Source: an uncultured Deferribacteres bacterium
GTDB taxonomy: Bacteria > Zhuqueibacterota > JdFR-76 > DREG01
Direction: 5' to 3'
DNA: 64,000 nt
Assembly (NCBI GenBank): GCA_913009825.1
Contig: CAJVYQ010000019.1
Coordinates: 2,980-66,979 of the forward strand
Part shown: positions 8,459 through 38,490 of the stretch, one piece after another
How the letters are laid out: each line of letters opens with the position of its first letter
Position numbering within the stretch: position 1 is the stretch's first letter
The notes under the pieces: model-generated
Told to the model about the DNA's origin: nothing
Database searches by the model: none
Seen by the model: only the letters and a program-made list of their open reading frames with translations
Position numbers and translations under genes: made by a program

Positions 8459-9388
8459 TTATTCCGTTTCTGAAGGCTGCCCTTCCAACATTTTTTTACG
8501 CGTCACAATGCGATATTTCCTTGGCGACATACCGGATATCTCTTTGAAAACGCGGTAAAAATGAGCGAGATCATTGAAGCCGGATTCGAAACAGATATGA
8601 GCAATTTGCTGATCCGTTTCCGCTAACATTTTTTGTGTGTAGTGAATGCGATGGAAACGTAAAAATTGTGTAAAAGTAACGCCGTAAACCGCTTTGAATT
8701 GATTGGTGAATTGGCGTACGCTCAGGCAGGCCATCCTGGCCATATTTTCCACGTTGATCTGCTCGTAAAAATTATTGGAAATATAGTCCGCCACTTTCTG
8801 AATCCGGTCCTGAGTGGGATTGGTATCACCGCATTGGTTGGGTACCGGGACGCTCATATAAATGCGATTGAGCGCTACCAGTAAACTGATTGTAGTTGCC
8901 TGAATAGTGGAAATATAACCAAATCTTTTCAGACGCTGCTCGTATAAAATCTGACGAATCATTCTGCGGATTTCGTAAGCGGCGTAATTGTAACGGGTTA
9001 GAGGTTTCATGTGTCTTTTATAAAGGGTCACAAGTTGATCCAATTGTTCTGAGAACATCTCAATCTCTCTCAGAGTTTCAACATCCAAAGCCAAAATATA
9101 CAGAGACAACGGAGAATTTTCAACATCGCGCAAATAGTGATTTGTGTGGCGGGGCACAACAAATATATTTTCCGGCTCTAATTTAACACTCTGCTTCTCA
9201 ACAAAACAATCGGCACTCCCCTCTAAAATATAATAAAGTTCCATGAATTCATGATCCTCCGGTTCCATGGAAAAACCGCTTTCATGGTGACTTTCACCGA
9301 TAACAATGCTATAATTGGGGAAATTAACCGGTATGGGTTCCCGGGTTGTCTCCACTTTTGGTTTCACATCTATCAAAAATTCCGGCAT
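8459..9388 (-). CDS. AraC family transcriptional regulator (cupin-like sensor plus HTH_18)
   Basis: 309 aa. The C-terminal two-HTH AraC signature is present (NVENMARMACLSVRQFTNQFK ... ICFESGFNDLAHFYRVFKEISGMSPRKYR). Confidence 0.85.
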   Translation of the reverse strand: MPEFLIDVKPKVETTREPIPVNFPNYSIVIGESHHESGFSMEPEDHEFMELYYILEGSADCFVEKQSVKLEPENIFVVPRHTNHYLRDVENSPLSLYILALDVETLREIEMFSEQLDQLVTLYKRHMKPLTRYNYAAYEIRRMIRQILYEQRLKRFGYISTIQATTISLLVALNRIYMSVPVPNQCGDTNPTQDRIQKVADYISNNFYEQINVENMARMACLSVRQFTNQFKAVYGVTFTQFLRFHRIHYTQKMLAETDQQIAHICFESGFNDLAHFYRVFKEISGMSPRKYRIVTRKKMLEGQPSETE

Positions 9389-9905: not shown

Positions 9906-11267
9906 ATGAAAAATCCCGCGGACAACCTGGAATTTCTGCAGGTGATTTTAAATTCCATCGCAGACGGTGTGTTTACCATCGATAATGAGATGCGGATCAC
10001 ATCTTTCAATCAGGCTGCAGAAAAAATCACCGGCATTCCTGCGTCAAAAGCGATTGGTAAAAAATGTTCGGAGATTTTTCATTCCGATTTGTGTGAAAAT
10101 GGCTGTGCTTTGCAACGGACATTTCAAACCGGTGAAGCAGCTATTGATGTGCCGGTGCACATCATCAACAACCGCGGAAAAAAAACGCCTATTAGTGTAA
10201 GCACTTCTATTTTGAAAGATAAAAGCGGCCAGGTTTTAGGCGCGGTGGAAACGTTCCGCGATTTAAGCACTATCGAGCAGTTGCAGAAAGAGATCAAAAA
10301 AAGCTACACCTTTGAAGATATTGTCAGCAAAAGTCCCCTCATCCATAAAATATTCCAGATACTACCCGATGTTGCCGAGAGCGACAGCACAGTCCTCATC
10401 CAGGGACCGAGTGGATCAGGGAAGGAACTTTTTGCCCGCGCCATCCACAATTTAAGCTTGCGCAAACACAAACCGTACGTGGTTGTCAACTGCGGTGCCT
10501 TGCCGGAAACGCTGTTCGAATCGGAACTGTTTGGCTACAAAAAGGGCGCTTTTACGGATGCCAAGCGGGACAAACCGGGCAAAATCACGCTGGCAGAAGG
10601 CGGCACACTTTTTCTGGATGAAGTGGAAGCGCTCCCTTTTAAAACACAGGTGAAACTGCTGCGTCTGTTGCAGGAATGGGAATACGAACCGATCGGCGGT
10701 ACACGTACGTTGAAGGCCAATATCCGTGTTGTTGCCGCCACCAACAAGCAATTGCAAAACTTGATAGTAGAGGGAAAATTCCGGGATGATCTGTTCTTTC
10801 GCCTGGCGGTAGTCAAATTCGACCTGCCGCCACTAAAAGAACGGCGGGAAGATATTCCCTATCTGGTTGAACATTTCATTGCAAAATTTAATGCAAAGCG
10901 GTCGAAAAATATCATCGGTGTCAGTCCGGAGGTGATGAATATTCTTCTCAAACACAATTATTTGGGAAATGTACGGGAACTGGAAAATATCATCGAATAC
11001 GCCTTTGTGGTCTGCCGCGGTAAAATTATCGAAGTTCAACATCTACCGCAGGAATTCAGCGCTAAGGCATCATTTCAGGAAATTGCCGCCACGCATATAA
11101 AACAGGTTACGGAAGAGATAGAAATTCAGGAAATTCAGCAGGCGCTGCGCAAATATTATGGTCACCAGGGAAAAGCAGCAAAAGAGTTGGGGATCGACCG
11201 TTCCACACTATGGCGCAAAGCAAAAAAATTTAATATCGATGTCAGATCATTTAAAAAAGTTTTTTAG
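9906..11267 (+). CDS. Sigma-54-dependent transcriptional activator (PAS sensor, AAA+ sigma-54 interaction domain, Fis-type HTH)
   Basis: Walker A GPSGSGKE, ESELFGYKKGAFTDA (a GAFTGA-loop variant), RVVAATN, and the C-terminal HTH AAKELGIDRSTLWRKAKKF. The N-terminal PAS-like domain contains CSEIFHSDLCENGC. There is no receiver domain. Confidence 0.9.
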   Translation: MKNPADNLEFLQVILNSIADGVFTIDNEMRITSFNQAAEKITGIPASKAIGKKCSEIFHSDLCENGCALQRTFQTGEAAIDVPVHIINNRGKKTPISVSTSILKDKSGQVLGAVETFRDLSTIEQLQKEIKKSYTFEDIVSKSPLIHKIFQILPDVAESDSTVLIQGPSGSGKELFARAIHNLSLRKHKPYVVVNCGALPETLFESELFGYKKGAFTDAKRDKPGKITLAEGGTLFLDEVEALPFKTQVKLLRLLQEWEYEPIGGTRTLKANIRVVAATNKQLQNLIVEGKFRDDLFFRLAVVKFDLPPLKERREDIPYLVEHFIAKFNAKRSKNIIGVSPEVMNILLKHNYLGNVRELENIIEYAFVVCRGKIIEVQHLPQEFSAKASFQEIAATHIKQVTEEIEIQEIQQALRKYYGHQGKAAKELGIDRSTLWRKAKKFNIDVRSFKKVF

Positions 11268-11531: not shown

Positions 11532-13007
11532 ATGAAAAAAGTATGGTTAAAGGTGGCTCTGATTTTTGTTCTTCTTTTCAGTGTGCAGGAGATATTTGCA
11601 CAGAACGGGGACAGTCAATTTGATTGTTTTACCGTATTGGTCGGGAAAAATGCCACACAGGACGGTTCCGTTCTGCTCGCCCACAATGAAGATGACGGCG
11701 GCGTCAATTTGGTCGATTGGTACAAAGTACCCCGGTTGACGCACAAAAAAGGCGAATTCATTCAACTGAAAGCGGGATATAAATTGCCGCAGGTGAAAGA
11801 GACATCCGCTCTCCTCTGGTTAGAGATGCCCGGGCAGCAATTTTCAGACAGTTACATGAATGAATGGGGCATTGTGATCACCTCCAATTCCTGTCCGTCC
11901 CGGGAGAAAGAGCCGGAATTGGTGAATGGTGGCATCGGTTATTTTTTACGCAGAATCATGGCGGAACGAGGAAAAACTGCAAAATCCGCCATTAAAGTTG
12001 CCGGCAAAATCATCGAGCAGGTTGGTTATTCCGGATCAGGCAGAACCTATTCCGTGGCCGATGCCAATGAAGTCTGGATGCTTTCCGTCGTGCGCGGCAA
12101 ACATTGGGTAGCCCGGCGCATCCCGGATGACGAAGTTGCCATCATGCCCAACTATTACACTATCGAAACCGTAGATTTGCAGGATACGCTGAATTACCTG
12201 GGCTCGCAGGATTTGATTCAATATGCAATCCAAAAAGGTTGGTATGATCCCGCTAGCGGTAAAAAATTCAACTTTCGCCTGGCTTATGCTTCCCGCGGCA
12301 GTCTTTCTCATCTGGCCAACATCGCCAGAAAATGGCAGGCGTACAATCTGCTTTCCGGTGAGGCGCACCCTTTTTACGGTTATTTCCCTTTCTCTTTTAA
12401 AGCGGCGGTGAAACTAACCGCGCAAAAACTGATGGCGGTACTGCAAAATCATTATGAAGGCACGGAGCTGGAAATGAATCCTGCCTACAATGCAGGCAAC
12501 CCGCACAAAAGCATCATCATGCGCATCTGCTCGCAAACCAACCAATACGGCTTTGTCACCCAGTTGCGCAACTGGATGCCTACGGACATTGGCGTGGTAA
12601 TGTGGCTGGCACCGCGACGGCCGTGTACTCACCCGTTTACTCCCTGGTATTGCGGCATCACGCAGGTTACGCAGGAGTTCACACGCGGAGATTATGAAAA
12701 GGCGCTGCAAAATCATTTCAACGCTCCGAAAACCATCTTTGAAAGAAGCAGTTCCCATGGTTTCTGGAATTTTGCCCATGACGCGGAAAATATAGATAAA
12801 AGCTACGGCGCTCTGATTCCAACGGTTAGAAATAAAAAACAGGCCATGGAAAAACGGCTTTTTTCCAAACAGGAAACTTTTGAGAAAAAGGCGCTGGCGA
12901 CCTACAAAAAGAACCGCAAAAAAGCCAGGCAGATGCTGACCGAATATACAAAAAAATACGCTTTGGAAGCGTTGTCAGTGGTGAAAAACAGAAATGACAA
13001 CCGTTAG
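11532..13007 (+). CDS. Peptidase family C69 dipeptidase, secreted
   Basis: Signal peptide (MKKVWLKVALIFVLLFSVQEIFA), then the DCFTVLVGKNATQDGSVLLAHNEDD block typical of the N-terminal-nucleophile Cys of C69 dipeptidases. Confidence 0.75.
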   Translation: MKKVWLKVALIFVLLFSVQEIFAQNGDSQFDCFTVLVGKNATQDGSVLLAHNEDDGGVNLVDWYKVPRLTHKKGEFIQLKAGYKLPQVKETSALLWLEMPGQQFSDSYMNEWGIVITSNSCPSREKEPELVNGGIGYFLRRIMAERGKTAKSAIKVAGKIIEQVGYSGSGRTYSVADANEVWMLSVVRGKHWVARRIPDDEVAIMPNYYTIETVDLQDTLNYLGSQDLIQYAIQKGWYDPASGKKFNFRLAYASRGSLSHLANIARKWQAYNLLSGEAHPFYGYFPFSFKAAVKLTAQKLMAVLQNHYEGTELEMNPAYNAGNPHKSIIMRICSQTNQYGFVTQLRNWMPTDIGVVMWLAPRRPCTHPFTPWYCGITQVTQEFTRGDYEKALQNHFNAPKTIFERSSSHGFWNFAHDAENIDKSYGALIPTVRNKKQAMEKRLFSKQETFEKKALATYKKNRKKARQMLTEYTKKYALEALSVVKNRNDNR

Positions 13008-13076
13008 GTTTTCCTGTTCGTTATTCGGTTTTGAAAGTTCAAATTTCTCTGCGTTAAAAAAGGGCAGAGAAATGCA

Positions 13077-13114
13077 GAAGCTGACCTTTTTTGAAAAGGT
13101 CAGCTTCTTTTTTT
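13077..13114 (+). terminator. Rho-independent terminator of the C69 peptidase gene (repeated at about 13279 and about 13613)
   Basis: GAAGCTGACCTTTT / AAAAGGTCAGCTTC stem followed by a T7 run. Confidence 0.8.
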
Positions 13115-13375
13115 ACCACCTGAGGGCGCTTTAGCGTCCTTCCTGTTTTTAGCCCCGTGGTTCACCGCGGGACTTCCCAGTTCGTTATTCGGTTTTGAAA
13201 GTTCAAATTTCTCTGCGTCCTCTGCGTTAAAAAAGGGGTGAATAAAAACGCAGAGACGCGGAGACCGCAGAGAAATGCAGAAGCTGACCTTTTTTGAAAA
13301 GGTCAGCTTCTTTTTTTACCACCTGAGGGCGCTTCAGCGTCCTTCCTGTTTTTAGCCCCGTGGTTCACCGCGGCG

Positions 13376-13506
13376 CTTTTGAGAAAAAGGCGCTGGCAGC
13401 CTACAAAAAGAACCGTAAAAAAGCCAGACAGATGCTGACCGAATATACAACAAAATATGCATTGGAAGCATTGTCATTGGTGAAAAACAGAAATGAGAAC
13501 CGTTAG
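13376..13506 (+). pseudogene. Orphan diverged copy of the last 131 nt of the C69 peptidase gene (compare 12877-13007)
   Basis: Collinear alignment with about a dozen substitutions and the same TAG stop. No upstream coding sequence is present. Confidence 0.85.
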
Positions 13507-13911
13507 ACTTCCCAGTTCGTTATTCGGTTTTGAAAGTTCAAATTTCTCTGCGTCCTCTGCGTTAAAAAAGGGGTGAATAAAAACGCAGAGACGCGGAGAC
13601 CGCAGAGAAAGTAGAAGCTGACCTTTTTTGAAAAGGTCAGCTTCTTTTTTTACCACCTGAGGGCGCTTTAGCGTCCTTCCTGTTCTTAGCCCCGTGGTTC
13701 ACCGCGGGGCGGGCCCGGCGCCTTTGTTCTTTCGCGGCAAAAGAAATTCTCAGAAAAAAAATATTTTTTTGATGTAAGAACAAGGATTAACGATTTCAGA
13801 ATTTCGAAGGCATGAAAATAACTGACATATTCTTATAATAATACTACATTTCCATTCTAAGGCAAAAACAAAACAATCATAATTACAAAGAGGCAACGGC
13901 CTTCTCTATAA

Positions 13912-13988
13912 AATTTGTTGCGCAATTGTTGCACAAAAATAATGCGCTTTGCAACAAATGCAACAAATTGTATTGCGTTCCTGCAACA
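13912..13988. promoter_or_regulatory. Candidate enhancer (UAS) for a sigma-54 activator: nested inverted repeats of TTGTTGC / GCAACAA
   Basis: AATTTGTTGC (13912-13921) pairs with GCAACAAATT (13960-13969). TTGTTGCA (13926-13933) pairs with TGCAACAA (13950-13957). There is a further GCAACA at 13983-13988 and a TTGCGCAA palindrome. The centre lies about 125 bp upstream of the -24/-12 element. Confidence 0.6.
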
Positions 13989-14063
13989 TTCTATACTGCC
14001 ATCCCTTTATCCAATATCCCGTAATTTGTTATTAACATAAGGTTTACCTTACTTCCTATTCAT

Positions 14064-14078
14064 TGGTATGGATTCTGC
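14064..14078 (+). promoter_or_regulatory. Sigma-54 (-24/-12) promoter candidate
   Basis: TGGTATGGATTCTGC has GG-N10-GC spacing and is close to the TGGCAC-N5-TTGC consensus. It ends 57 nt upstream of the ATG at 14136. Confidence 0.65.
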
Positions 14079-14135
14079 CAAAGCTATTTACTTAAAAGCA
14101 AGGTTTTTTAATTTGTAAAAAAAGAAATTGTATTT

Positions 14136-14819
14136 ATGAGATTGGCAATTCCCACGTTCAAAGAAGAAGTCGCACCCAGTTTTGATTTCAGTAAAAGTTT
14201 TTCTCTCTTTGAAATCGAGAACGACAATATTGTGCGCCGGGAGAAGATGTCTTTCGGCGAACAGAATCCTCTCACACGGGTTCGGCAACTAAAACAGTAC
14301 CGGGTTGACGTCCTTATCTGCAATGCATTGCGTTCTTACACAGAACGATTGTTACAATTGAACGAGATCAGGTTTGTGTCCGGTATCTCGGGAAATGTGG
14401 ATGAAATTGTCCGCAAATATTTGCAGAAAGAGATTCAGACCAAAGAACCGGATTTGAACCGAATTGCACTGCTGAAAAAGACAAATTACGCTAATTTGTA
14501 TGTTTGCAGTCAGGAGCATTTTAAAAGCCTGGGATACGATGTTCAGCTTCCCAAAGAGACATCCAAAACATTTATCGATTTCATCGGGACAAAACGGGAC
14601 GAAACAGGAAAATCAACCAAAACCATTGCCGTGTGCTGCGGCGGCCATCTATACAAAGTCGAAGAAGAAATACGGGAATTTGCCCGGGAAACCGGCGACC
14701 TGTTCGATGAAAATTACTACGTCCACCCTGTTTGTCCGGGGGTTCAGCAGTTATGTGATCAGTACCAAATCATTCTGCTTGGCTCTGAATCGCTGCAGAA
14801 AACAATCGAAAAAGGATAA
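14136..14819 (+). CDS. NifX/NifB-C-terminal-like (dinitrogenase FeMo-cofactor-binding family) domain protein with a Cys-containing C-terminal extension
   Basis: The N-terminal about 95 aa (MRLAIPTFKEEVAPSFDFSKSFSLFEIEND...VDVLICNALRSYTERLLQLNEIRFVSG) resemble the small NifX-like fold. The C-terminal about 120 aa (..IAVCCGGHLY..VHPVCPGVQQLCDQ) are unassigned. Confidence 0.5.
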   Translation: MRLAIPTFKEEVAPSFDFSKSFSLFEIENDNIVRREKMSFGEQNPLTRVRQLKQYRVDVLICNALRSYTERLLQLNEIRFVSGISGNVDEIVRKYLQKEIQTKEPDLNRIALLKKTNYANLYVCSQEHFKSLGYDVQLPKETSKTFIDFIGTKRDETGKSTKTIAVCCGGHLYKVEEEIREFARETGDLFDENYYVHPVCPGVQQLCDQYQIILLGSESLQKTIEKG

Positions 14820-14822
14820 AAA

Positions 14823-16076
14823 ATGATCAACACAAAAAACTGGGATTGGGGGATTCAGAATAAAGTCCTTGCCGACATTGCTGAAATCAAATCCAGATAT
14901 CAGGATGTGCATGAATTTGTCGTGAGTCCCGACGGCGAAAAGATCGCTGCGCCGGTGGTGCTGGAAGATGATACTTTTACCGCATGTGTGAACAATGATC
15001 AGTGGCCGGATACTTTTGAAAAACTTTGGTACCTGCGTTTTTCCCCTGGCAATAAATTAACAGCGTTAGTAATGTCGGACGATGAATGGACGCTGGCAGT
15101 TGACGGCCGGGTTTACGAAGAAAACTATGAATATGCGTGGGATGTCAGATTCAGTGAAAATGGTGAATCGATCAGCATGTTGTATAAACGGGACAATCTG
15201 TACGGTGTAGCGCTGAACGGCAAGCCCTGGGCGAACGGTTTTGTGGCGATCCGGGACTATTGCCTCAGTCCCGACGGCAAACGCACTGCGGCAACGGTTC
15301 AGGTAAAAACACTGGACGAAGCCGATGTTTTTGGCTTTTTTGCCGGCGCCTGGTCAGTAGCCGTGGACGGAAAAGTCTGGCCGGAAAAATTTATCAATGC
15401 CTGGAAACCGGCTTTCAGTAAAGATGGCTCGCTGGTAGCTGCGGAAATCCGCACCGATATTTGTGAATACTCTGTTGCCGTCAATGGCAAATCGTGGGAG
15501 AAAAAATACGGCAGCGTTTGGGATCCTGTTTTCAGACCCGGCAACGGCAGCGTCATTGCCGCGGTAAAGGAGGGCAGTAACTGGTTTCTTGCAGAAAACG
15601 GCAGCCGAATATGGGGCCGCAATTACAATCAGATCTGGCTGCCAAAATTAAGTCCCGACGGCAAACGCATTGCAGCGGTTGCTTCGCCGGAATTCGGCAA
15701 ATGGACTATTGCCGTGGATGACAGACCGTGGGCCAAATTGTTTGACGACATGGTCCTCGCCCCTGTTTTCTCCCCGGACGGCAAAAGAGTAGCCGCCATT
15801 GTTAAAGAGAACAATCACTGGAGCATTGCCGTGGATGGTAAAACATGGCCGGAAAGTTACGATATGATCTGGGATCCGGTGTTCAGTCCCTGCGGAAAAA
15901 ACGTGGTTGCCAAAGCTGAAAAGAACGGCAGATACGCGGTGGTTTTGAATGGTAAAAACATCGGCACAAATTACGACGCCCTCTGGCCGCCGATTTTCAG
16001 CCCGGATGGTGATAAAATTCTGCTGCGTTACATCGCCGACGGAAAATATTACCGGGAAGTTCGTCCTTTGAATTAA
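14823..16076 (+). CDS. Tryptophan-rich cytoplasmic repeat protein (10 x about 40-aa PD40/TolB-like 'FSPDGK..AA' repeats), possible TmcD analogue
   Basis: Ten repeats of the form W.P.FSPDGKR[IV]AA..........W.[IV]AVDGK.W...Y...W. There are 21 Trp in 417 aa and no signal peptide. The start lies 3 nt after the upstream stop. Confidence 0.6.
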   Translation: MINTKNWDWGIQNKVLADIAEIKSRYQDVHEFVVSPDGEKIAAPVVLEDDTFTACVNNDQWPDTFEKLWYLRFSPGNKLTALVMSDDEWTLAVDGRVYEENYEYAWDVRFSENGESISMLYKRDNLYGVALNGKPWANGFVAIRDYCLSPDGKRTAATVQVKTLDEADVFGFFAGAWSVAVDGKVWPEKFINAWKPAFSKDGSLVAAEIRTDICEYSVAVNGKSWEKKYGSVWDPVFRPGNGSVIAAVKEGSNWFLAENGSRIWGRNYNQIWLPKLSPDGKRIAAVASPEFGKWTIAVDDRPWAKLFDDMVLAPVFSPDGKRVAAIVKENNHWSIAVDGKTWPESYDMIWDPVFSPCGKNVVAKAEKNGRYAVVLNGKNIGTNYDALWPPIFSPDGDKILLRYIADGKYYREVRPLN

Positions 16077-16094
16077 AATAGGAATCAATTAAAA

Positions 16095-16742
16095 ATGTAT
16101 GAATTTGTTCGTGGACCTCTGGTTTGGCTGGCTTTTATCGTTTTTATTTTGGGCAGCATCTATCGTTTGCTGCAAATACGCAGTCAGCTTAAAAAAGACA
16201 AAGTCGTTTTTTCATATATGAATTTTAAGTACGGCATGCGTTCCATTTTGCACTGGATCACCCCTTTCGGCGCCGTAAATATGAGGAAACGGCCGGCGTT
16301 TACTATCATGTCTTTTCTGTTTCATTTCTGCCTGATCATCACCCCCATCTTTTTATTGGGGCACAATCTGGTGTGGTACGAATCCTGGGGTATTCATTGG
16401 TGGACATTACCGGAGCGGATTACCAATATCATGACCATCATTGTTGTTGCGGCCGGTTTTATTTTTGCTTTGCGACGAATTGCAGACCCAACAGTGCGTC
16501 TGGTAACCGCCTTTTCCGATTTTCTGCTTTTGCTGATTGTTTTGGCGCCGTTCATCACAGGACTGTTTGCCTATTACCAGGCATTTGATTATAAAACCAT
16601 GATCACGCTGCACATCCTGTCCGGTTGCTTGTGGTTGATGATTATTCCCTTCACCCGGATTGTCCACATGATCTTTTTTGGAATTTCCCGCGCTTACATG
16701 GGCTCCGAATTTGGTTATGTGAGACACGCGAAAGATTGGTAA
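16095..16742 (+). CDS. NarI-type membrane cytochrome b subunit (HmcE / TmcC / DsrM-like)
   Basis: 215 aa with about 5 predicted helices, and conserved His residues in helices (FLFHFCL..LLGHNL, LHILSG, RIVHMIFF). Its size and its position next to an HdrD-like gene fit the call. Confidence 0.7.
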   Translation: MYEFVRGPLVWLAFIVFILGSIYRLLQIRSQLKKDKVVFSYMNFKYGMRSILHWITPFGAVNMRKRPAFTIMSFLFHFCLIITPIFLLGHNLVWYESWGIHWWTLPERITNIMTIIVVAAGFIFALRRIADPTVRLVTAFSDFLLLLIVLAPFITGLFAYYQAFDYKTMITLHILSGCLWLMIIPFTRIVHMIFFGISRAYMGSEFGYVRHAKDW

Positions 16743-16769
16743 ATCACGGATTTCAAAAACGGAGGCATC

Positions 16770-18092
16770 TTGAAATTAATCGATTCTCCCGAGAGCAAAG
16801 TAGTCGATCCCGGGCTTGACGAAACCATTAAAAAACTGACGCCCGAAAAGATAAAGCGGGTAGTCGATCACGTTCTGACCAAAGAAAACGCCGGGCGTTT
16901 GCAAATGTACATCGATACCTGCGTGCATTGCGGGCTGTGTGCAGAAGCTTGTCATACTTACCTGTCACGGGATAAAGATCCGAATTTCTCGCCGGTTGCC
17001 AAAGTGAAAAATACACTGTGGGAATTGGTTAAACAGAAAGGGGATGTCAGTCCGGAATTTATCCGGCAGGCGGCCAGAATCGCTTTCACCGAATGCGGTG
17101 CCTGCCGCAGGTGCAGCATGTACTGTCCGTTTGGAATCGACATCGCTTACCTGATCATGATTGTGCGGCGGATTTGCAGTCTGTTGGGTGTGGTGCCGCA
17201 ATATTTGCAGGACACTACCAACAGTCACGCCGCCACCTCCAACCAGATGTGGGTGCACCAGGATGAATGGATCGACACGCTGCAATGGCAGGAAGAGGAA
17301 GCGGGTTTTGAAATTCCCGGCGTACGTATCCCTCTGGAAAAAGAGGGCGCCGATGTGATGTATTCGGTGATTGCGCCGGAGCCAAAAATTCTGGCCCAAT
17401 TGTTAGGCAATATGGCCATGATTATGAAAGTAGCCGGAATCGACTGGACCATGCCGGCGACAGACGGCTGGGACAACAGCAATATGGCCATGTACTCCGG
17501 TGACTTCGAGATCATGGGACGTGTGGAACGGCTGCACTGGGAAACCGCCGCCCGATTGAAAGTAAAAAAAATCGTCATGGGCGAATGCGGTCACGCTTTT
17601 CGCGGCGCGGTGTACGACGGCCCCAAATGGCTGGGCTGGAAATTCCCGCCCATTCCCATGGTTCACGCCATTGAGTTTTACTACGATCTGATCAAAAGCG
17701 GTAGAATTAAAATCAAAGAAAAATATAAAGAACCGGTTACCATTCAGGACCCCTGTAATACGGTGCGCGGCCGCGGTTTGGGTGATAAATTGAGATATGT
17801 GGTGAATGAATTGTGTGAAGATTTCACCGATGTGAGTCCAAATCAGGAACATAATTACTGTTGCATGGCTGGCGGCGGTACCATCAATTGCGGCCCGCCG
17901 TGGAAAAAATCCCGTATGATCAGCAACCGGGTGAAAGCGGAACAGTTGGCTGCTACCGGCGCAAAAATAGTGATTACTCCCTGTCACAATTGTCACAGCG
18001 GCATCGAAGATATCATCGGTTATTACAATTTGGGCATGCACGTGAAATTTATCAACGAAATTTTGGTGGAAACCATGGAACGACCGGAATAA
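16770..18092 (+). CDS. HdrD-like iron-sulfur protein with two CCG domains (HmcF / TmcB / DsrK-like)
   Basis: TTG start 5 nt after GGAGG. Two ferredoxin motifs are present (CVHCGLCAEAC and CGACRRCSMYCP), plus CCG-type cysteine blocks (DPCNTVRG, YCCMAGGG, TPCHNCHSG). Confidence 0.8.
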   Translation: MKLIDSPESKVVDPGLDETIKKLTPEKIKRVVDHVLTKENAGRLQMYIDTCVHCGLCAEACHTYLSRDKDPNFSPVAKVKNTLWELVKQKGDVSPEFIRQAARIAFTECGACRRCSMYCPFGIDIAYLIMIVRRICSLLGVVPQYLQDTTNSHAATSNQMWVHQDEWIDTLQWQEEEAGFEIPGVRIPLEKEGADVMYSVIAPEPKILAQLLGNMAMIMKVAGIDWTMPATDGWDNSNMAMYSGDFEIMGRVERLHWETAARLKVKKIVMGECGHAFRGAVYDGPKWLGWKFPPIPMVHAIEFYYDLIKSGRIKIKEKYKEPVTIQDPCNTVRGRGLGDKLRYVVNELCEDFTDVSPNQEHNYCCMAGGGTINCGPPWKKSRMISNRVKAEQLAATGAKIVITPCHNCHSGIEDIIGYYNLGMHVKFINEILVETMERPE

Positions 18093-18151
18093 GAGAAACG
18101 ATACAATCCGGGTAAACCGAAAAATCAAGCAAGAAATTTTGAGGATAAAAT

Positions 18152-19744
18152 ATGAGACAAGAAAAAACACCGCATCGATGGATGAAACTGGTTTTCCCGC
18201 CGGCAGTTTTGTTTCTGTGCCTGCTTGCCTTTTCCGGATGCGGCCGCAGTGAAGCGGATCTGACCACTGAGAGAACCGATCTGGTTACCATCGATGTGCT
18301 GACCGCTTTCGGCAATCCGGAGAAACCGGCCGTCGTTTTTCCCCACGATCTGCACACCGGCACCATCGAACCCAAAAATGATAATTGCACAACCTGTCAT
18401 CTGAAAAACGAAAAAGGCATACTGGCGCAAAAATTTCAGCGGTGGACAGATTCCGACAAAGATTCGACCATGAATCTTTATCACAACAAATGCATCAACT
18501 GTCATAAAGAGACCGCAGCGAAAGGCAAAAAAGCGGGGCCGGTTGTCTGCGGCGATTGCCATCGCAAAAATCCTGCGTTTATTTCCGCCCGGCAGCCGAT
18601 GCGGATGGATAAATCGCTGCATTACCGGCACATCAAAGCAAACGAAGAGAAATGCGACAAATGTCATCATGACTACGATAAAATCAACAAAAAACTTATC
18701 TACAAAAAGGGTGAAGAGCGGCCGTGTCTGTTGTGCCATAAAAACAAAAAAGAGGAAAATCGGGATTCATTCCGGTTTGTCGCGCATCAGGAGTGCATTG
18801 GCTGCCACAAGGCGGCAAAGCCCGGGACTGCCGGACCGGTTCAATGTGCCGGCTGCCACGATGCACAACGGCAGCAGGCCATTAAAAAAGTGGAGAATCC
18901 GCCACGCCTGAAACGGAATCAGCCGGATCAGGTTTTGATCAGCGCCCCGGAAAATGAACTGGAAATGAGCAAAATGAACACCGTGCCGTTCGACCATCAG
19001 GCACACGAAATCTACAATTCCTCCTGCCATCGCTGTCATGAAGAAATTTTGCGCCCGTGTACCGAGTGCCACACCATGACGGAGAATAAAAAGAACAAAG
19101 GGATTCTGCTGCAAAAAGCGATGCACAGTAAAAACTCCGTTTTCAGTTGTATCGGCTGTCACGACAGCCAGAAGACAAAAACGGAGTGCGCCGGATGTCA
19201 TTCATTGATGGAACAGGGACGCCTTTCGGAAAACGCCTGTGTGAAATGCCATACCGGTCCGACACCACAACAGTTGCAAAAAACGTCCGGCAAAACAAGT
19301 AACATCAAAAAGTGGTTTCCGGACAAAAAAATGTCCCGCCTGTCTTTTGCAAAACAGGACATTCCGGATTCTGTCATCATCAGCCTTTTAGAAAATAAAT
19401 ATGAACCGGTTCATTTTCCACACCGAAAAATGATTGATGCACTGCAAAAGGATATTGCCAAAAGTAAATTAGCTTCCTTTTTCCACGGCAGTGAAGATAT
19501 GCTTTGCCGGGGTTGCCACCATCACACGCCGGTGGGCAAAAAACCGCCGCTCTGTGAAAGTTGTCACGGCAAGTCGTTTCAGGAAAGTAAAGTGCCCATG
19601 CCGGGAATTTTAGCCGCTTACCATCGGCAGTGTCTGGGCTGTCATGAAGAGATGAAAATAGAAAAACCTTCCGGCGGCTGTACCGACTGCCATGCGAAGA
19701 AAAAAGAATCTGCAATTACCATGCAAACAAAGGATAAGAAATGA
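18152..19744 (+). CDS. 16-haem c-type cytochrome, lipoprotein (HmcA-like high-molecular-weight cytochrome c)
   Basis: I count 16 CXXCH motifs (CTTCH, CINCH, CGDCH, CDKCH, CLLCH, CIGCH, CAGCH, CHRCH, CTECH, CIGCH, CAGCH, CVKCH, CRGCH, CESCH, CLGCH, CTDCH). The signal peptide ends in the lipobox-like [12 protein letters not shown] lies 8 nt upstream. Confidence 0.85.
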
Positions 19745-20793
19745 GCAATTCACGAAGAAATTTTTTCAAGCAAGTTGCCGCAATTGGCGCCGGTGTTGCC
19801 ATAACAAAACCGGCCAAAGCGACAGAAGAATTTCCCGGTTATCCGGACAGTTACGGCATTTTACATGACACCTCGCTCTGTGTCGGTTGTCGTTCCTGCG
19901 AAGCGGCCTGCAATGAAGTTAACCAATTGCCGCCGCCGGAAAAGCCGTTTGATGACAAATCCGTGCTGGACAAAAAACGCCGCACGGATGATAAAGCCTA
20001 CACAGTAGTGAACCGCTACAAAGACCGGGACGGTGAGAAGAAGCCGGTTTATCGTAAAATTCAATGCAACCATTGTTTTGAACCGGCCTGCGCCTCGGCT
20101 TGTTTTGTGGGTGCATTCACCAAAACGCCGTTGGGACCGGTTATTTATGATCCGTCTATCTGCGTCGGCTGCCGCTACTGTATCGTGGCTTGTCCCTTCA
20201 ATGTACCGGCGTTTGAGTACGATGAGCCGCTCCATCCCCGCGTCATGAAATGCACCATGTGTTACCCGCGACTGCTAGAAGGGAAATTGCCCGGTTGCGT
20301 GAAAGCTTGCCCGGTGGGCGCGCTCACGTTTGGTAAAAGGAAAGACCTGCTTTCCATCGCCCGGGAACGCATCCGTAAACATCCCGATCGATACATCGAT
20401 CACATTTATGGCGAACATGAGATGGGCGGCACCAACTGGCTTTATATCACCGGAACGCCGTTTGAAGAGGTGGACCTGCGTATGGATCTGGGAGTTACGC
20501 CGGCGCCGGAATTCACATATAGCGCATTGAGCGCAGTGCCGATGGTAGTGGGTCTGTGGCCGGTGCTGCTGACGGGCGTTTACGCTATCAACAAGCGTAA
20601 TCAAAAAATGGCAAAGAAGGAAGAGGAAGAAGCGGTTTTGGCGGCCATTGATAAAACGAGAAAAGAGGAACAGGCAAAAACGGAAACGGCTCTGGAACGG
20701 GCAAAAAAAGAACAACAAAAAGCGATTGACATCGCTGTGAAAAAAGCGCTTGAAGAAACATCCCGGTCGAAAGACAAGGAGGAAAATGAATGA
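19741..20793 (+). CDS. Tat-exported four-cluster [4Fe-4S] ferredoxin subunit with a C-terminal membrane anchor (HmcB / DsrO-like)
   Basis: The start overlaps the upstream stop (ATGA). The Tat motif is [24 protein letters not shown]. Four Cys clusters are present ([40 protein letters not shown]...CVKACP), followed by one helix ([18 protein letters not shown]) and a K/E-rich tail. Confidence 0.85.
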
Positions 20794-21965
20794 CAACGTT
20801 AACAAACCGTATTGAGCATAAATCGATTTTCACCATCCAAAACATCATCTCCGGGATCATTCTACTGGTGGGATTGGTGCTGACTTTTCTGCGTTTCACT
20901 CGCGGATTGGGAACGGTCAGCAATTTGTCCAACAACCAACCCTGGGGCTTCTGGATCGGCTTTGATCTGCTAACCGGCGTTGCGTTGGCAGCCGGAGGAT
21001 ATGTTACCGGAGCGGCAGTGTACATTTTCGGCAATGAAAAATATCATTCCGCTGTGCGTCCCGCCGTTTTAACCGGATTCCTGGGATATGCCATGGTTGT
21101 TTTTGCGCTGCTGTACGACGTCGGTCGTCCCTGGCGGCTTCCCTATCCGTTTTTTGTCTCCCAGGGAGTTACCTCCGTGATGTTCGAAGTGGGCGCCTGT
21201 GTAGCGCTCTATCTCACGGTGCTTTTCCTGGAAATCTCCCCGGTGGGTTTGGAATGGCTGGGCTTAAAAAAGACCCGCAACCTGGCGGTAAAACTGACCG
21301 TTCTGCTGACCATTTTAGGTGTCATCCTGTCCACGCTGCATCAGTCATCGTTGGGCGCGCTTTTCTTAATTGCTCCTTCCAAACTGCATCCGCTCTGGTA
21401 TTCCAATTATCTGCCGGTCTTTTTTTTCATCTCCAGCATTACCGCCGGATTGTCCATGGTGATCTTTGAAGGCTCACTGTCACAGCGTGCTTACGGCGAA
21501 AAGATGGATGCGAAACATCTAAAGGAAAAAGATGATGTAGCGTTGGGATTCGGTAAAGCGGCTGCCATTGTGCTGTTCGGTTATTTTGCCATCAAAGTGG
21601 TGGGCATTGCGGCGGGAAATCACTGGAATCTGCTATTTACTCCGTACGGCCTCTGGTTTCAGGTGGAGATGATCGGATTTGTCATGCTGCCCTGTTTCCT
21701 CTACTCCATTGGTGTGCGGGATAAAAATCTCAAGTTGATCAAATTCGCAGCAGGACTCACCGTATTCGGCATCGTTTTGAACCGTTTAAACATCTCCCTG
21801 ATTGCTTTTAATTACCGGCTTCCTTTGTCGGAACGGTATTTTCCGCACTGGATGGAAATCGGTATTTCGGTTTTTATTGTTACTATCGGCATTTCGGTTT
21901 ACCGCTTTATTGTCACTAAAATGCCGGTTTTTTACGAACATCCTGAATTTGAAGATTTGCACTAA
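20790..21965 (+). CDS. NrfD/PsrC-type integral membrane quinone-interacting subunit (HmcC / DsrP-like)
   Basis: ATGA overlap with the upstream gene. 391 aa with about 10 hydrophobic helices, positioned after the Tat ferredoxin. Confidence 0.75.
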
Positions 21966-21979
21966 CCGGAGAATAAAAG

Positions 21980-22123
21980 ATGGATATTCATACATTACAG
22001 CAGTTTGTCTTTCATACCAAAGGGGTCATCTACATTCTGATTGTCGGTTATTTGATCGGCTTCCCGCTTTTTTGGCGGTTTTTGCATGCACGGGAGCCAA
22101 AAGACAATGACATTCATACCTGA
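21980..22123 (+). CDS. Small single-helix membrane peptide (47 aa), HmcD-like; absent from the supplied ORF track (below the 60-aa cut-off)
   Basis: ATG at 21980, 14 nt after the upstream stop, preceded by GGAGAATAAAAG. The translation is MDIHTLQQFVFHTKGVIYILIVGYLIGFPLFWRFLHAREPKDNDIHT, with one hydrophobic helix and positive residues after it. Confidence 0.55.
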   Translation: MDIHTLQQFVFHTKGVIYILIVGYLIGFPLFWRFLHAREPKDNDIHT

Positions 22124-25769: not shown

Positions 25770-25890
25770 ATCTTTGAGTTGAATGATCCTCTTGTTTTTG
25801 AACTTGTTGCTATTAGCAGCTCTGTTATTATTTTTCAGCGTAAAACCTGCCGGCGATTCGGCAAATCGTGCTACAATCGCTCAATTCAGG
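25770..25890 (-). mobile_element. MITE family A, copy 1 (reverse orientation; left end degenerate)
   Basis: ...CTCTTGTTTTTGAACTTGTTGC...GGCGATTCGGCAAATCGTGCTACAATCGCTCAATTCAGG aligns with the reverse complement of the copies at 35.2 and 60.55 kb. Confidence 0.7.
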
Positions 25891-25988
25891 GTAGAGAGAA
25901 AATTCTTTCTCAACAGGATGCCTCGGAAATAGGAGGATTGTTTTTATCCGTCGGTTTCGGCAAAAAATTAGATGGACGCCCAAAACAG

Positions 25989-28043: not shown

Positions 28044-28155
28044 GTTTGCTGAAACCGTCCAGCCCACACCTGTCTGCCGCAGCCGGAAAAAACACGACAT
28101 ACCGGCCTGCCGCAGGCATTTACGAAAACCTCGATGGGTTGGAAAACAACTTTGT

Positions 28156-28272
28156 CCTGATTTGAGCGATTCTTTTGTTTTTAAGTTTGTGACCGTTACT
28201 GAACGGGTTTATACTTTTAATGTGAATTCTGTTGGCGATTCCGCGAATCGCTCTACAATCGCTCAATTCAGG
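28156..28272 (-). mobile_element. MITE family A, copy 2 (reverse orientation)
   Basis: CCTGATTTGAGCGATTC...GGCGATTCCGCGAATCGCTCTACAATCGCTCAATTCAGG, flanked on both sides by TTTGT (possible target duplication). Confidence 0.8.
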
Positions 28273-28325
28273 TTTGTATTGTATCCTGAATAGTTACAGT
28301 TTTCCATATATTTTAGATCAAAAAC

Positions 28326-35297: not shown

Positions 35298-38490
<3,193 letters not shown>

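What the first reader, a model, noticed from the sequence alone, without database searches (positions are those of the whole stretch)
13912..14078. Well-formed sigma-54 promoter with a nested-palindrome enhancer upstream of the redox operon
TGGTATGGATTCTGC (14064-14078) has the exact GG-N10-GC geometry of -24/-12 promoters and ends 57 nt from the first ATG. About 125 bp upstream there are two left-hand TTGTTGC copies (13915, 13926) and two right-hand GCAACAA copies (13951, 13960). They form an outer 10-bp perfect inverted repeat (AATTTGTTGC/GCAACAAATT) and an inner 8-bp perfect inverted repeat (TTGTTGCA/TGCAACAA), and a fifth half-site lies at 13983. This is the classic layout for an oligomerising bEBP. 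Sigma-54 control of an Hmc/Dsr-like complex would indicate signal-dependent expression.
Basis: seen in the sequence. Interest (0 to 1): 0.65.

Follow-up and report, generated by a model that had tools for sequence, protein, structure and literature searches.

The report
Sigma-54 promoter and enhancer, Tmc/Hmc operon
The flagged sequence is very probably a real sigma-54 promoter with an upstream activator-binding array, switching on a membrane electron-transfer (Tmc/Hmc-type) operon; the same design is kept in related bacteria from several phyla, so it is a sound but fairly ordinary new example of a known kind of gene switch.

Summary
The bare GG-N10-GC geometry is not above chance in the window. 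The case rests on comparative evidence instead.

I found relatives by protein homology only. In 13 loci a PAS-AAA+-HTH activator gene is followed by an array of tGTTGCa half-sites, then a -24/-12 element, then a NifX/ORP-like first gene. This first gene leads a DsrMK/Tmc/Hmc-type operon.

- In two 52-53 % identical orthologues the spacer has diverged, except for four islands: TGTTGC, TTGCAAyAAATGCAA, TTGC-N6-GCAaCA and TGGTAT-N6-TGC.
- GTTGCA is the top 6-mer in the upstream regions: 31 observed against 1.2 expected, in 10 of 11 loci.
- The activator at 9906-11267 is the cognate one. Its orthologue lies directly next to the operon everywhere else. In the window, a peptidase gene and tandem repeats have been inserted between them.
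- Its PAS domain has the C-x8-C-x3-C plus acidic residue pattern of OrpR, the [4Fe-4S] redox-sensing activator of Desulfovibrio. The operator differs from OrpR's.

The nested palindrome is real, but it is a by-product of short dyads and half-sites. The operon is a TmcDCB-HmcABC hybrid. No transcription start, DNA binding or rpoN could be tested. I classify it as a new member of a known kind, of moderate interest.

The parts
9906..11267 (+). Cognate enhancer-binding protein (453 aa): PAS - AAA+ sigma-54 interaction domain - Fis-type HTH. The PAS domain carries C54, E56, C63 and C67 (C-x8-C-x3-C). The L1 loop reads GAFTDA.
   Evidence: Pfam domains PAS, Sigma54_activat, AAA_lid_14 and HTH_8. Translation. 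Orthologues lie directly upstream of the orthologous operons. The cysteine spacing equals that of OrpR C52/C61/C65 plus D/E54 (PMC8359166).
13912..13969 (.). This is the distal and central part of the upstream activating sequence.
   Evidence: Read directly. As single-stranded DNA it could fold at -17 kcal/mol, z = -2.8. The nested arrangement itself is not conserved in relatives.
13915..13933 (+). Two direct tGTTGC half-sites, 11 bp apart (13915-13921 and 13926-13933). The 13927-13932 TGTTGC is invariant in the three-way alignment.
   Evidence: Their cores lie at -148 and -137 relative to the GG. Relatives have half-sites at about -135.
13949..13963 (.). Dyad A: TTGCA-ACAAA-TGCAA (TTGC-N7-GCAA). 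It is the best conserved block of the enhancer and its centre lies about 109 bp upstream of the GG.
   Evidence: It is the only perfect TTGCA-N5-TGCAA in the window. 14 of 15 columns are invariant among window, L005 and L006. The distance from its end to TGGTAT is 98, 96 and 95 nt in the three loci (read).
13972..13987 (.). Dyad B: ATTGC-GTTCCT-GCAAC (TTGC-N6-GCAA), the promoter-proximal site.
   Evidence: It is conserved as GTTGC-N6-GCAGC in L005 and GTTGC-N6-GCAAC in L006. L022 has two ATTGC-N6-GCAAT dyads and L024 has one. L008, L009 and L013 have GTTGCA-N5-yGCAAC (L010 with one mismatch) at about -75.
14022..14050 (.). A moderately conserved A/T-rich block between the enhancer and the promoter. 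It is a candidate bend or architectural-protein site.
   Evidence: Partly conserved columns in the three-way alignment. There is only a 2-mismatch match to the E. coli IHF consensus. Any function is inferred, not shown.
14064..14078 (+). Sigma-54 promoter TGGTATGGATTCTGC, with -24 GG at 14065-66 and -12 GC at 14077-78. The inferred transcription start is near 14089-14090, giving a leader of about 46 nt.
   Evidence: Conserved in L005 and L006. Equivalent elements occur in 10 of 11 orthologous upstream regions. The start site is inferred from the usual -12 geometry.
14136..14819 (+). First operon gene (227 aa). The N-terminal domain is NifX/ORP-like. The C-terminal domain has no known family and carries invariant CCGxH ... 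C-x6-C.
   Evidence: Pfam Nitro_FeMo-Co, 25 bits, just under the cut-off. NCBIfam MrpORP C-terminal domain, 43 bits, weak. Alignment A1. No Pfam hit for the C-terminal half.
14823..18092 (+). TmcD (14823-16076), TmcC membrane cytochrome b anchor (16095-16742), and TmcB, an HdrD/DsrK-like CCG iron-sulfur protein (16770-18092).
   Evidence: NCBIfam scores: TmcD 537 bits (cut-off 440), TmcC 295 (cut-off 240), TmcB 733 (cut-off 735). Pfam domains.
18152..21965 (+). HmcA 16-haem cytochrome c (18152-19744), HmcB iron-sulfur protein (19741-20793), and HmcC, an NrfD-type membrane protein (20790-21965).
   Evidence: NCBIfam scores: HmcA 550 bits (cut-off 400), HmcB 512 (cut-off 420), HmcC 648 (cut-off 550). 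HmcA has 16 CxxCH motifs.
22064..22078 (+). Terminator-like hairpin followed by a T run. This is the probable end of the operon.

Best explanation
The region 13912-14078 is the control region of a 7.8-kb operon (14136-21965). The operon encodes a NifX/ORP-like protein and a hybrid TmcDCB-HmcABC transmembrane electron-transfer complex.

Proposed mechanism:
- RNA polymerase with sigma-54 binds TGGTAT-N6-TGC (14064-78) as a closed complex.
- Dimers of the PAS-AAA+-HTH activator encoded at 9906-11267 bind an array of tGTTGCa half-sites 80-150 bp upstream of the GG. The array comprises dyad A (13949-63), dyad B (13972-87) and two direct half-sites (13915-33).
- The bound dimers assemble into the active AAA+ ring.
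- The ring reaches the polymerase by looping the A/T-rich spacer and uses ATP hydrolysis to open the promoter.
- By analogy with OrpR, the cysteine-rich PAS domain probably holds a redox-sensitive Fe-S cluster that allows activation only at low redox potential. The complex would then be made under reducing, anoxic conditions.

Shown here:
- the sequence elements;
- their conservation and conserved spacing in relatives;
- the synteny with the activator gene;
- the domain content of the proteins.

Inferred:
- binding;
- looping;
- the start site near 14089-90;
- the Fe-S cluster and the redox signal.
For: (a) Phylogenetic footprint. In the alignment of the window with two loci found only through the first gene's protein (52-53 % identity), conservation falls into four islands: TGTTGC, TTGCAAyAAATGCAA, TTGC-N6-GCAaCA and TGGTAT..T.TGC. 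The spacing from enhancer to promoter is 98, 96 and 95 nt.

(b) Distant loci. These have first-gene identity of 23-31 % and activator identity of 45-63 %. They are labelled Zixibacteria, Gemmatimonadota, Ignavibacteria, Planctomycetaceae and Thermodesulfobacteriota, or come from unlabelled metagenomes. All show the order activator gene, TTGC/GCAA sites, GG-N10-GC, NifX-like gene, DsrK/DsrM/FeS/NrfD-type genes.

(c) Promoter scores. The best sigma-54 score in the 150 nt before the first gene is in the top 0.7-4.3 % of all 150-nt windows of the same locus in 9 of 11 loci; L006 is at 8.3 %, but with only 12 control windows.

(d) Unbiased word count. GTTGCA occurs 31 times against 1.24 expected, in 10 of 11 loci. 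TGTTGC occurs 28 times against 1.2 expected. Per-locus enrichment gives P from 1e-6 to 0.03. The half-site cores recur near -135, -116, -105 and -84 from the GG.

(e) Specificity. Clusters of 4 or more cores occur in 5 of 15 orthologue-type activator loci but in only 2 of 65 paralogue loci. There is no second such cluster in the window.

(f) Activator. It has full bEBP architecture. Its C54/E56/C63/C67 spacing is identical to the OrpR residues shown to be needed for [4Fe-4S]-based redox sensing.

(g) Rival signals are absent. There is no Bacteroidota-type TAnnTTTG on the + strand of the spacer and no Rfam element.

(h) Precedent. OrpR works with sigma-54 and IHF at the orp operons, and DVU3142 is predicted to control the Ohc cytochrome complex with sigma-54.
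Against: - There are no transcript or binding data.
- The promoter match alone is mediocre: TGGTAT and CTGC instead of TGGCAC and TTGC, ranking 8th in the window. The bare geometry is at chance level.
- rpoN is not in the window, and I could not search the rest of the genome.
- The activator's sigma-54 contact loop reads GAFTDA instead of the canonical GAFTGA. I could not establish what this means for function.
- In two relatives the -12 element is poor: L009 has TTAC and L018 has TTGAG.
- L015 uses GTTTC/GAAAC half-sites without an obvious change in the HTH.
- The activator gene is 2.6 kb away in the window, not adjacent.
- The link to OrpR rests on domain order and cysteine spacing only. I did not align the protein with DVU2106, and OrpR's operator (GGGCGYRTTTTGCGCCC) is absent.
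- The division of the half-sites into dyads is my own reading and cannot be settled from sequence.
Confidence: 0.78

Rival explanations
1. The enhancer and promoter are real, but the array is bound by a different regulator. This could be another bEBP elsewhere in the genome or the AraC-type protein at 8459-9388, rather than the activator at 9906-11267.
For: In the window the activator gene is separated from the operon by a peptidase gene and about 1.1 kb of repeats. An AraC-family gene lies nearby. No binding data exist.
Against: In L005 the 81 % identical activator gene ends 229 nt before the operon's ATG. In at least 10 more distant loci the orthologous activator is the immediate upstream or divergent neighbour, and the same half-site word follows it. 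The AraC gene is not part of that conserved neighbourhood. The HTH recognition region (R-T/S-T-L-W-R-K) is conserved along with the site.
Confidence: 0.07
2. The GG-N10-GC match is a chance occurrence. The operon is read from a housekeeping-sigma promoter, and the TTGC/GCAA array is the operator of a classical repressor or activator.
For: The geometry is at chance frequency in the window and the site ranks only 8th by weight matrix. Sigma-70-like hexamers exist at 13812-13850.
Against: The -24/-12 element is conserved in position and sequence in relatives while the flanks diverge. The sigma-70-like hits lie upstream of the enhancer and have no counterpart in L005 or L006, where the activator gene ends there. 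There is no TAnnTTTG on the + strand. The conserved neighbour is a sigma-54-dependent activator, a protein class known to act only with sigma-54 (established knowledge).
Confidence: 0.06
3. The nested palindrome acts as a DNA cruciform or RNA hairpin, or is debris of the adjacent tandem repeats, and is not a protein-binding array.
For: It can fold at -17 kcal/mol as single-stranded DNA, z = -2.8. It lies just downstream of a repeat-rich, hairpin-rich stretch.
Against: The nested pairing is not kept in relatives, whereas the half-site word and its distance to the promoter are. No T run follows it. It lies upstream of the promoter and downstream of three strong terminator-like hairpins, so it is unlikely to be transcribed with either gene. 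It shares no sequence with repeat families D1-D3.
Confidence: 0.03

Closest known systems
OrpR (DVU2106) / sigma-54 / IHF control of the orp operons in Desulfovibrio vulgaris Hildenborough (Fievet et al. 2011, 2021; PMC8359166)
   Same: - It is a one-component PAS-AAA+-HTH activator.
- It has three PAS cysteines with identical spacing (C-x8-C-x3-C) plus an acidic residue two positions after the first Cys.
- The activator gene lies next to its target.
- The regulon is narrow and local.
- The operator is a roughly 17-bp imperfect palindrome upstream of a -24/-12 promoter.
- The first target gene encodes a NifX/ORP-type domain.
   Different: - The operator is tGTTGCa-based (TTGC-N6/7-GCAA), not GGGCGYRTTTTGCGCCC, which is absent here.
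- There is one unidirectional operon, not two divergent ones.
- The targets are a Tmc/Hmc-type membrane redox complex, not the Orp proteins.
- There is no convincing IHF site.
- The host looks like an FCB-group bacterium, not a Desulfovibrio.
- Sequence identity to DVU2106 was not measured.
DVU3142-dependent sigma-54 control of the octahaem cytochrome complex operon ohcBAC (predicted; Kazakov et al. 2015, PMC4641369)
   Same: A bEBP gene lies next to an operon for a periplasmic multihaem cytochrome, an Fe-S protein and a membrane subunit. The promoter and binding sites were inferred by comparative genomics.
   Different: The complex differs (Ohc against a Tmc/Hmc hybrid). The arrangement there is divergent, and the activator's sensor and binding motif differ. 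That paper does not mention hmc or tmc.
Multi-site enhancers of NtrC- and NorR-type activators (established knowledge, from memory)
   Same: Several dyad sites of about 17 bp lie 80-150 bp upstream of a -24/-12 promoter and nucleate an AAA+ oligomer.
   Different: The half-site sequence differs. Here extra direct half-sites flank the dyads. The sensor is a PAS domain, not a receiver or GAF domain.
Tmc (TmcABCD) and Hmc (HmcABCDEF) complexes of sulfate reducers
   Same: TmcD, TmcC, HmcA (16 haems), HmcB and HmcC all score above NCBIfam equivalog cut-offs.
   Different: The gene set is a hybrid. There is no TmcA and no HmcD/E/F. TmcC and TmcB take the place of HmcE and HmcF. TmcB scores 2 bits under its cut-off. 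A NifX/ORP-like gene leads the operon. Relatives carry the simpler set NifX-like, DsrK-like, DsrM-like, FeS, NrfD.

Membership tests
sigma-54 (-24/-12) promoter | GG and GC dinucleotides separated by exactly 10 nt, within a TGGCAC-N5-TTGCW-like context | tested here: met
   TGGTATGGATTCTGC at 14064-78. The weight-matrix score is 11.1-11.3 bits depending on the background used, in the top 0.8 % of 150-nt windows. Bases -23 and -21 are T and -14 is C, so it departs from the consensus.
sigma-54 (-24/-12) promoter | Conserved at the same place in orthologous loci | tested here: met
   L005 and L006 keep TGGTAT-N6-TGC. 10 of 11 orthologous upstream regions have a high-scoring element 19-70 nt before the first gene. 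L022 and L024 have one as well.
sigma-54 (-24/-12) promoter | Transcription starts about 11-13 nt downstream of the GC and depends on rpoN | not testable with these tools
   There are no transcript data.
sigma-54 (-24/-12) promoter | A bEBP with a sigma-54 interaction domain is available | tested here: met
   Sigma54_activat E = 1e-64 for the 9906-11267 product. However, the L1 loop reads GAFTDA rather than GAFTGA.
bEBP upstream activating sequence | Repeated dyad-symmetric sites about 80-200 bp upstream of the promoter | tested here: met
   Half-site cores at -172, -148, -137, -114, -105 and -82 from the GG. Dyads at 13949-63 and 13972-87.
bEBP upstream activating sequence | The site word co-occurs with the activator's orthologues and not with paralogues | tested here: met
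   GTTGCA occurs 31 times against 1.24 expected, in 10 of 11 loci. Clusters of 4 or more occur in 5 of 15 orthologue loci against 2 of 65 paralogue loci.
bEBP upstream activating sequence | Specific binding by the activator | not testable with these tools
   This needs EMSA, DAP-seq or footprinting.
OrpR-type Fe-S PAS activators | PAS-AAA+-HTH architecture, with three conserved PAS cysteines spaced as C52, C61, C65 and an acidic residue at position 54 | tested here: met
   C54, E56, C63 and C67 in the window protein. C-x8-C-x2/3-C is present in every orthologue whose PAS region the motif search covered, 14 of 18 proteins; the other four are truncated (L005) or were missed because the ORF was over-extended at the N-terminus. 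OrpR residues are taken from PMC8359166.
OrpR-type Fe-S PAS activators | Operator GGGCGYRTTTTGCGCCC | tested here: not met
   Allowing 3 mismatches gives no match near the operon and only scattered matches elsewhere.
OrpR-type Fe-S PAS activators | Orthology to DVU2106 by sequence, and a bound [4Fe-4S] cluster | not tested
NCBIfam has no OrpR model; the best hit, PrdR, scores 380 bits against a cut-off of 795. The cluster needs biochemistry.
Tmc / Hmc electron-transfer complexes | Subunits pass the curated equivalog models | tested here: met
   TmcD, TmcC, HmcA, HmcB and HmcC are above their cut-offs. TmcB scores 733.2 against a cut-off of 735. HmcA has 16 CxxCH motifs.
Tmc / Hmc electron-transfer complexes | The complete canonical subunit set of one complex (TmcABCD or HmcABCDEF) | tested here: not met
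   There is no TmcA and no HmcD/E/F. The operon mixes the two sets.

The most novel reading that the evidence does not exclude
The activator, the tGTTGCa enhancer, the sigma-54 promoter and the NifX/ORP-like first gene form an ancient module found across phyla. The module puts DsrMK/Tmc/Hmc-type membrane complexes under an Fe-S-based redox switch. The always-first NifX/ORP-like protein has an unclassified CCGxH...C-x6-C domain. It would be a dedicated cytoplasmic partner (cofactor carrier or thiol/disulfide substrate) of the HdrD-like subunit. This would tie the enigmatic orange-protein family to membrane-bound electron transfer.
Probability: 0.2. Interest if true: 0.6.

Novelty: new member of a known kind. 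Interest (0 to 1): 0.36.

Why it matters
Hmc- and Tmc-type complexes are central but poorly understood links between periplasmic electron donors and cytoplasmic reduction in anaerobes. Little is known about how they are regulated outside Desulfovibrio. I found no paper in the searched library that links sigma-54 to Tmc or Hmc.

This locus gives a concrete, testable regulatory circuit: a defined promoter, a defined operator word and an identified activator with a probable redox sensor. The circuit recurs in several poorly studied phyla. It also offers a second, differently targeted relative of OrpR, which so far is the only bEBP shown to sense redox through an Fe-S PAS domain. Finally, it points to a recurrent genetic link between ORP/NifX-like proteins and HdrD-type membrane complexes.

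As a mechanism it is textbook sigma-54 biology, so the surprise for a specialist is modest.

Tried and rejected
- Single-protein scans of the genome collection with the first gene and with HmcA found no relatives. An alignment-based scan with the first gene also found none in genomes. Relatives came from exact-protein look-ups, the metagenome scan and the activator alignment.
- OrpR's operator was searched in the window and all loci, allowing up to 3 mismatches. Nothing meaningful turned up.
- L019 carries a 51 % identical activator flanked by NifX-like genes. I examined it as a possible true orp locus, but NCBIfam gave no Orp/Mrp equivalogs, so I dropped it.
- IHF consensus between the enhancer and the promoter: only a 2-mismatch hit, and no conserved consensus in L005 or L006.
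- Bacteroidota-type -7 element TAnnTTTG: none on the + strand of the spacer.
- Rfam search of 12900-14300: only sub-threshold hits driven by hairpins in the repeats.
- Other enhancer copies in the window, including upstream of the activator gene: none.
- I looked for a change in the HTH recognition helix of L015 to match its altered half-site (GTTTC). There was no clear change, so I make no covariation claim.
- A literature search for the GAFTDA loop variant timed out.
- A DPP-IV scan placed the organism only loosely: 37-38 % identity at best, to Cytophagia, KSB1 and Ignavibacteria MAGs.
- A Pfam search of the first gene's C-terminal half at E <= 10 found nothing.
Full report
**1. The observation**

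Reading 13600-14400 confirms every element at the stated coordinates.
- TTGTTGC lies at 13915 and 13926, and GCAACAA at 13951 and 13960.
- The outer 10-bp perfect inverted repeat is 13912-13921 / 13960-13969.
- The inner 8-bp perfect inverted repeat is 13926-13933 / 13950-13957.
- A further GCAACA lies at 13983.
- TGGTATGGATTCTGC lies at 14064-14078, and 57 nt separate it from the ATG at 14136.

The promoter-like element is not significant on its own. TGG-N9-TGC occurs 30 times in the window against 38 expected. An approximate sigma-54 weight matrix (my own weights) ranks the site 8th on both strands. However, the seven better sites all lie inside long ORFs. Only 0.8 % of 150-nt windows reach its score.

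The half-site cluster is clearly non-random.
- Four of 22 TTGTTGC copies lie within 52 bp.
- Six GTTGC/GCAAC cores lie within 120 bp, where the next largest cluster in 64 kb has three. Random placement gives P about 0.001.

**2. The surroundings**

Downstream lies a tightly packed operon, 14136-21965. It ends at a terminator-like hairpin at 22064. Its products are as follows.
- The first is a 227-aa protein with a weak NifX/ORP-type N-terminal domain.
- TmcD, TmcC and TmcB follow. TmcB scores 2 bits under its NCBIfam cut-off.
- HmcA (16 CxxCH motifs), HmcB and HmcC complete the operon.

'Hmc/Dsr-like' is therefore right. More precisely, the operon is a TmcDCB-HmcABC hybrid.

Upstream, 9906-11267 encodes a PAS-AAA+ (Sigma54_activat, E = 1e-64)-HTH_8 activator. 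A peptidase C69 gene follows (11532-13007). After it comes about 700 bp of tandem repeats with strong terminator-like hairpins.

The window matches contigs from a marine metagenome, PRJDB5792. T9SS sorting domains and a Reg_prop/Y_Y_Y hybrid kinase point to an FCB-group organism. Its best DPP-IV match among species-representative genomes is only 37-38 % identical.

**3. Comparative test with close relatives**

The first gene's protein has only four relatives in the large protein database, at 52-53 % identity. Two of them have retrievable DNA, L005 and L006.

Both carry TGGTAT-N6-TGC just upstream of the gene: TGGTATATAATCTGC and TGGTATGTTATGTGC. Both also carry TTGCAATAAATGCAA(y)A 95-96 nt upstream of that. 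The window has TTGCAACAAATGCAACA 98 nt upstream.

In the three-way alignment, conservation is confined to four islands in an otherwise diverged A/T-rich spacer:
- TGTTGC (13927-32);
- TTGCAAyAAATGCAA (13949-63; 14 of 15 columns invariant);
- TTGC-N6-GCAaCA (13973-88);
- TGGTAT..T.TGC (14064-78).

This is a classical phylogenetic footprint of a promoter plus operator.

In L005 the gene ending 229 nt upstream of the operon encodes an 81 % identical orthologue of the window's activator. The peptidase gene and repeats are therefore an insertion in the window's lineage. The 9906-11267 protein is the natural candidate for the cognate activator.

**4. Comparative test with distant relatives**

An alignment-based metagenome scan with the first gene gave further loci. 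So did a genome scan with the activator alignment. In these loci a 45-63 % identical, full-length activator orthologue directly precedes a NifX-like gene. DsrK-like, DsrM-like, FeS (HmcB/DsrO-like) and NrfD genes follow. In one locus the activator gene is divergent from the operon.

The loci are L008, L009, L010, L013, L015, L018, L022, L023, L024 and L032. Their labels are Zixibacteria, Gemmatimonadota, Ignavibacteria, Planctomycetaceae and Thermodesulfobacteriota, or they come from unlabelled metagenomes. MAG labels may be unreliable.

Their intergenic regions hold 3-7 GTTGC/GCAAC cores followed by -24/-12 elements:

| Locus | -24/-12 element |
|---|---|
| L008 | CGGCATTGTTCGTGCT |
| L010 | CGGCATGTTTCATGCA |
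| L013 | CGGCACCGCCTTTGCA |
| L015 | TGGTCTGGCCCTTGCG |
| L022 | CGGCATGTTATCTGCA |
| L023 | TGGTATAGGGTTTGCA |
| L024 | TGGCACGCGTGTTGCA |
| L032 | TGGCATGACGTTTGCT |

Two loci have poor -12 elements, L009 (TTAC) and L018 (TTGAG).

The quantitative results are as follows.
- In 9 of 11 loci the best sigma-54 score before the first gene is in the top 0.7-4.3 % of windows of that locus. L006 is at 8.3 % with only 12 control windows.
- Core enrichment in the -40 to -200 region has P from 1e-6 to 0.03 per locus. The exception is L015, which uses GTTTC/GAAAC instead.
- An unbiased 6-mer count puts GTTGCA first (31 observed, 1.24 expected, 10 of 11 loci). TGTTGC is second (28 against 1.2).
- The half-site logo from 61 sites is tGTTGCa.
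- Core positions relative to the GG recur near -135, -116, -105 and -84. The window has -137, -114, -105 and -82, plus -148 and -172.
- As a specificity control, clusters of 4 or more cores occur in 5 of 15 orthologue-type loci against 2 of 65 paralogous bEBP loci.

**5. Anatomy of the enhancer**

The nested long-range palindrome is real and could even fold (-17 kcal/mol as single-stranded DNA, z = -2.8). It is not what relatives conserve. The recurring units are short dyads.
- TTGC-N7-GCAA is dyad A in the window (13949-63). It also occurs as GTTGCA-N5-yGCAAC at about -75 in L008, L009 and L013, and with one mismatch in L010.
- TTGC-N6-GCAA is dyad B in the window (13972-87). The same form occurs in L005 and L006. 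L022 has two ATTGC-N6-GCAAT copies and L024 has one.
- Additional single or direct half-sites are also present. In the window these are at 13915-33, 11 bp apart.

Because TTGCAA is itself palindromic, the orientation of several half-sites is ambiguous. The exact pairing needs footprinting. Core spacings of 11, 23, 9 and 23 bp keep the sites roughly on one face of the helix.

Between dyad B and the promoter lies a partly conserved A/T-rich block (14022-50). It could bend DNA or bind an architectural protein. The E. coli IHF consensus is matched only with two mismatches.

**6. Mechanism**

The best-supported reading is a standard sigma-54 circuit.
- Sigma-54 polymerase forms a closed complex at 14064-78.
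- Activator dimers bind the tGTTGCa array and oligomerise.
- The oligomer reaches the polymerase by DNA looping.
- ATP-driven opening gives a start near 14089-90.

The signal is inferred from the PAS domain. C54, E56, C63 and C67 reproduce the spacing of OrpR C52, D/E54, C61 and C65. In OrpR these residues are required for redox sensing by a [4Fe-4S] cluster, and the PAS domain inhibits activation when the medium becomes oxidising (PMC8359166). C-x8-C-x2/3-C is present in every orthologue whose PAS region the motif search covered, 14 of 18 proteins. The other four were truncated or over-extended at the N-terminus.

The Tmc/Hmc-type complex would then be produced only at low redox potential. 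This part has lower confidence, about 0.5. I did not align the protein with DVU2106, its operator differs from OrpR's, and NCBIfam places it in no named family.

**7. Rivals**

- A different regulator binding the array is unlikely, given the conserved synteny and the co-occurrence of the word with the activator's orthologues.
- A housekeeping-sigma promoter is unlikely. The only sigma-70-like hexamers lie upstream of the enhancer and have no room in L005 or L006. No TAnnTTTG faces the operon.
- A structural role for the palindrome, or an origin in the repeats, is unlikely. The nested pairing is not conserved, no T run follows it, and it shares nothing with the repeat families.
- No Rfam family matches the region.

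**8. Comparison with what is known, and novelty**

The closest characterised system is OrpR/sigma-54/IHF at the orp operons. It shares the activator architecture, the cysteine signature, a local narrow regulon and an ORP/NifX-type target gene. It differs in operator, in target genes and in host.

Sigma-54 control of a cytochrome-containing membrane complex has been predicted before, for DVU3142 and Ohc (PMC4641369). I found nothing in the searched literature on sigma-54 control of Tmc or Hmc.

I therefore classify this as a new member of a known kind. It is well supported computationally, mechanistically unsurprising, and useful as a defined circuit for poorly studied phyla.

**9. Limits**

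There is no transcription start, no binding data, and rpoN has not been seen. The GAFTDA loop has unknown consequences for function. The weight matrix uses my own approximate frequencies. MAG taxonomic labels are taken at face value. Some loci were found with a search pattern that contained GAFTDA, so its universality there is partly built in.

Noticed in passing
window 13020-13712: There are three copies of a roughly 112-nt unit, each with a perfect 15-bp-stem hairpin plus T run (13076, 13279, 13613). There is also a 92 % duplicate of the last ~150 nt of the peptidase C69 gene (12901-13054 vs 13400-13553). The spacer between the peptidase gene and the operon is 1128 nt in the window and L001 but 591 and 629 nt in two other assemblies whose enhancer and promoter are identical. 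Either the copy number varies or the assemblies collapse the repeats.
   Followed up: partly
window 11532-13007: The peptidase C69 gene sits between the activator gene and its target operon only in the window's lineage. In L005 (81 % identical activator) and in the distant loci the two are adjacent. This looks like an insertion into a regulatory module.
   Followed up: partly
window 14136-14819 (residues ~100-227): The C-terminal half of the first operon protein has invariant CCGxH...C-x6-C residues across its 52-53 % identical homologues. It matches no Pfam family even at E <= 10. It is always the first gene of these operons.
   Followed up: partly
window 14823-21965: The operon mixes Tmc-type (TmcD, TmcC, TmcB) and Hmc-type (HmcA with 16 haems, HmcB, HmcC) subunits. 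There is no TmcA and no HmcD/E/F. Distant relatives have a simpler set: NifX-like, DsrK-like, DsrM-like, FeS, NrfD. In L010 a cytochrome c domain is fused to NrfD.
   Followed up: partly
window 10530-10550 region (activator residues ~214-219): The sigma-54-contacting loop reads GAFTDA instead of the canonical GAFTGA. This holds in the window protein and in the orthologues found independently through the first gene (L005, L008-L010). A literature search for the variant timed out.
   Followed up: no
L015 3980-4060: The orthologous locus labelled Gemmatimonadota has GTTTC/GAAAC half-sites in place of GTTGC/GCAAC. The activator's recognition helix shows no obvious change.
   Followed up: partly
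window 35298-38475 (- strand): A GH2 beta-galactosidase is split into two adjacent ORFs. The N-terminal sugar-binding domain is at 37591-38475 and the rest at 35298-37583. The likely cause is a frameshift, a pseudogene or an assembly error.
   Followed up: no
window 25779-29672: A molybdopterin oxidoreductase and a 4Fe-4S dicluster protein gene lie about 4 kb downstream of the Tmc/Hmc operon. No tGTTGCa cluster precedes them.
   Followed up: no
L019 3550-3900 and 7090-7400: Two NifX-like genes flank a 51 % identical activator gene, and both are preceded by near-identical duplicated upstream regions of about 250 nt. There are no tGTTGCa sites and no OrpR operator.
   Followed up: partly
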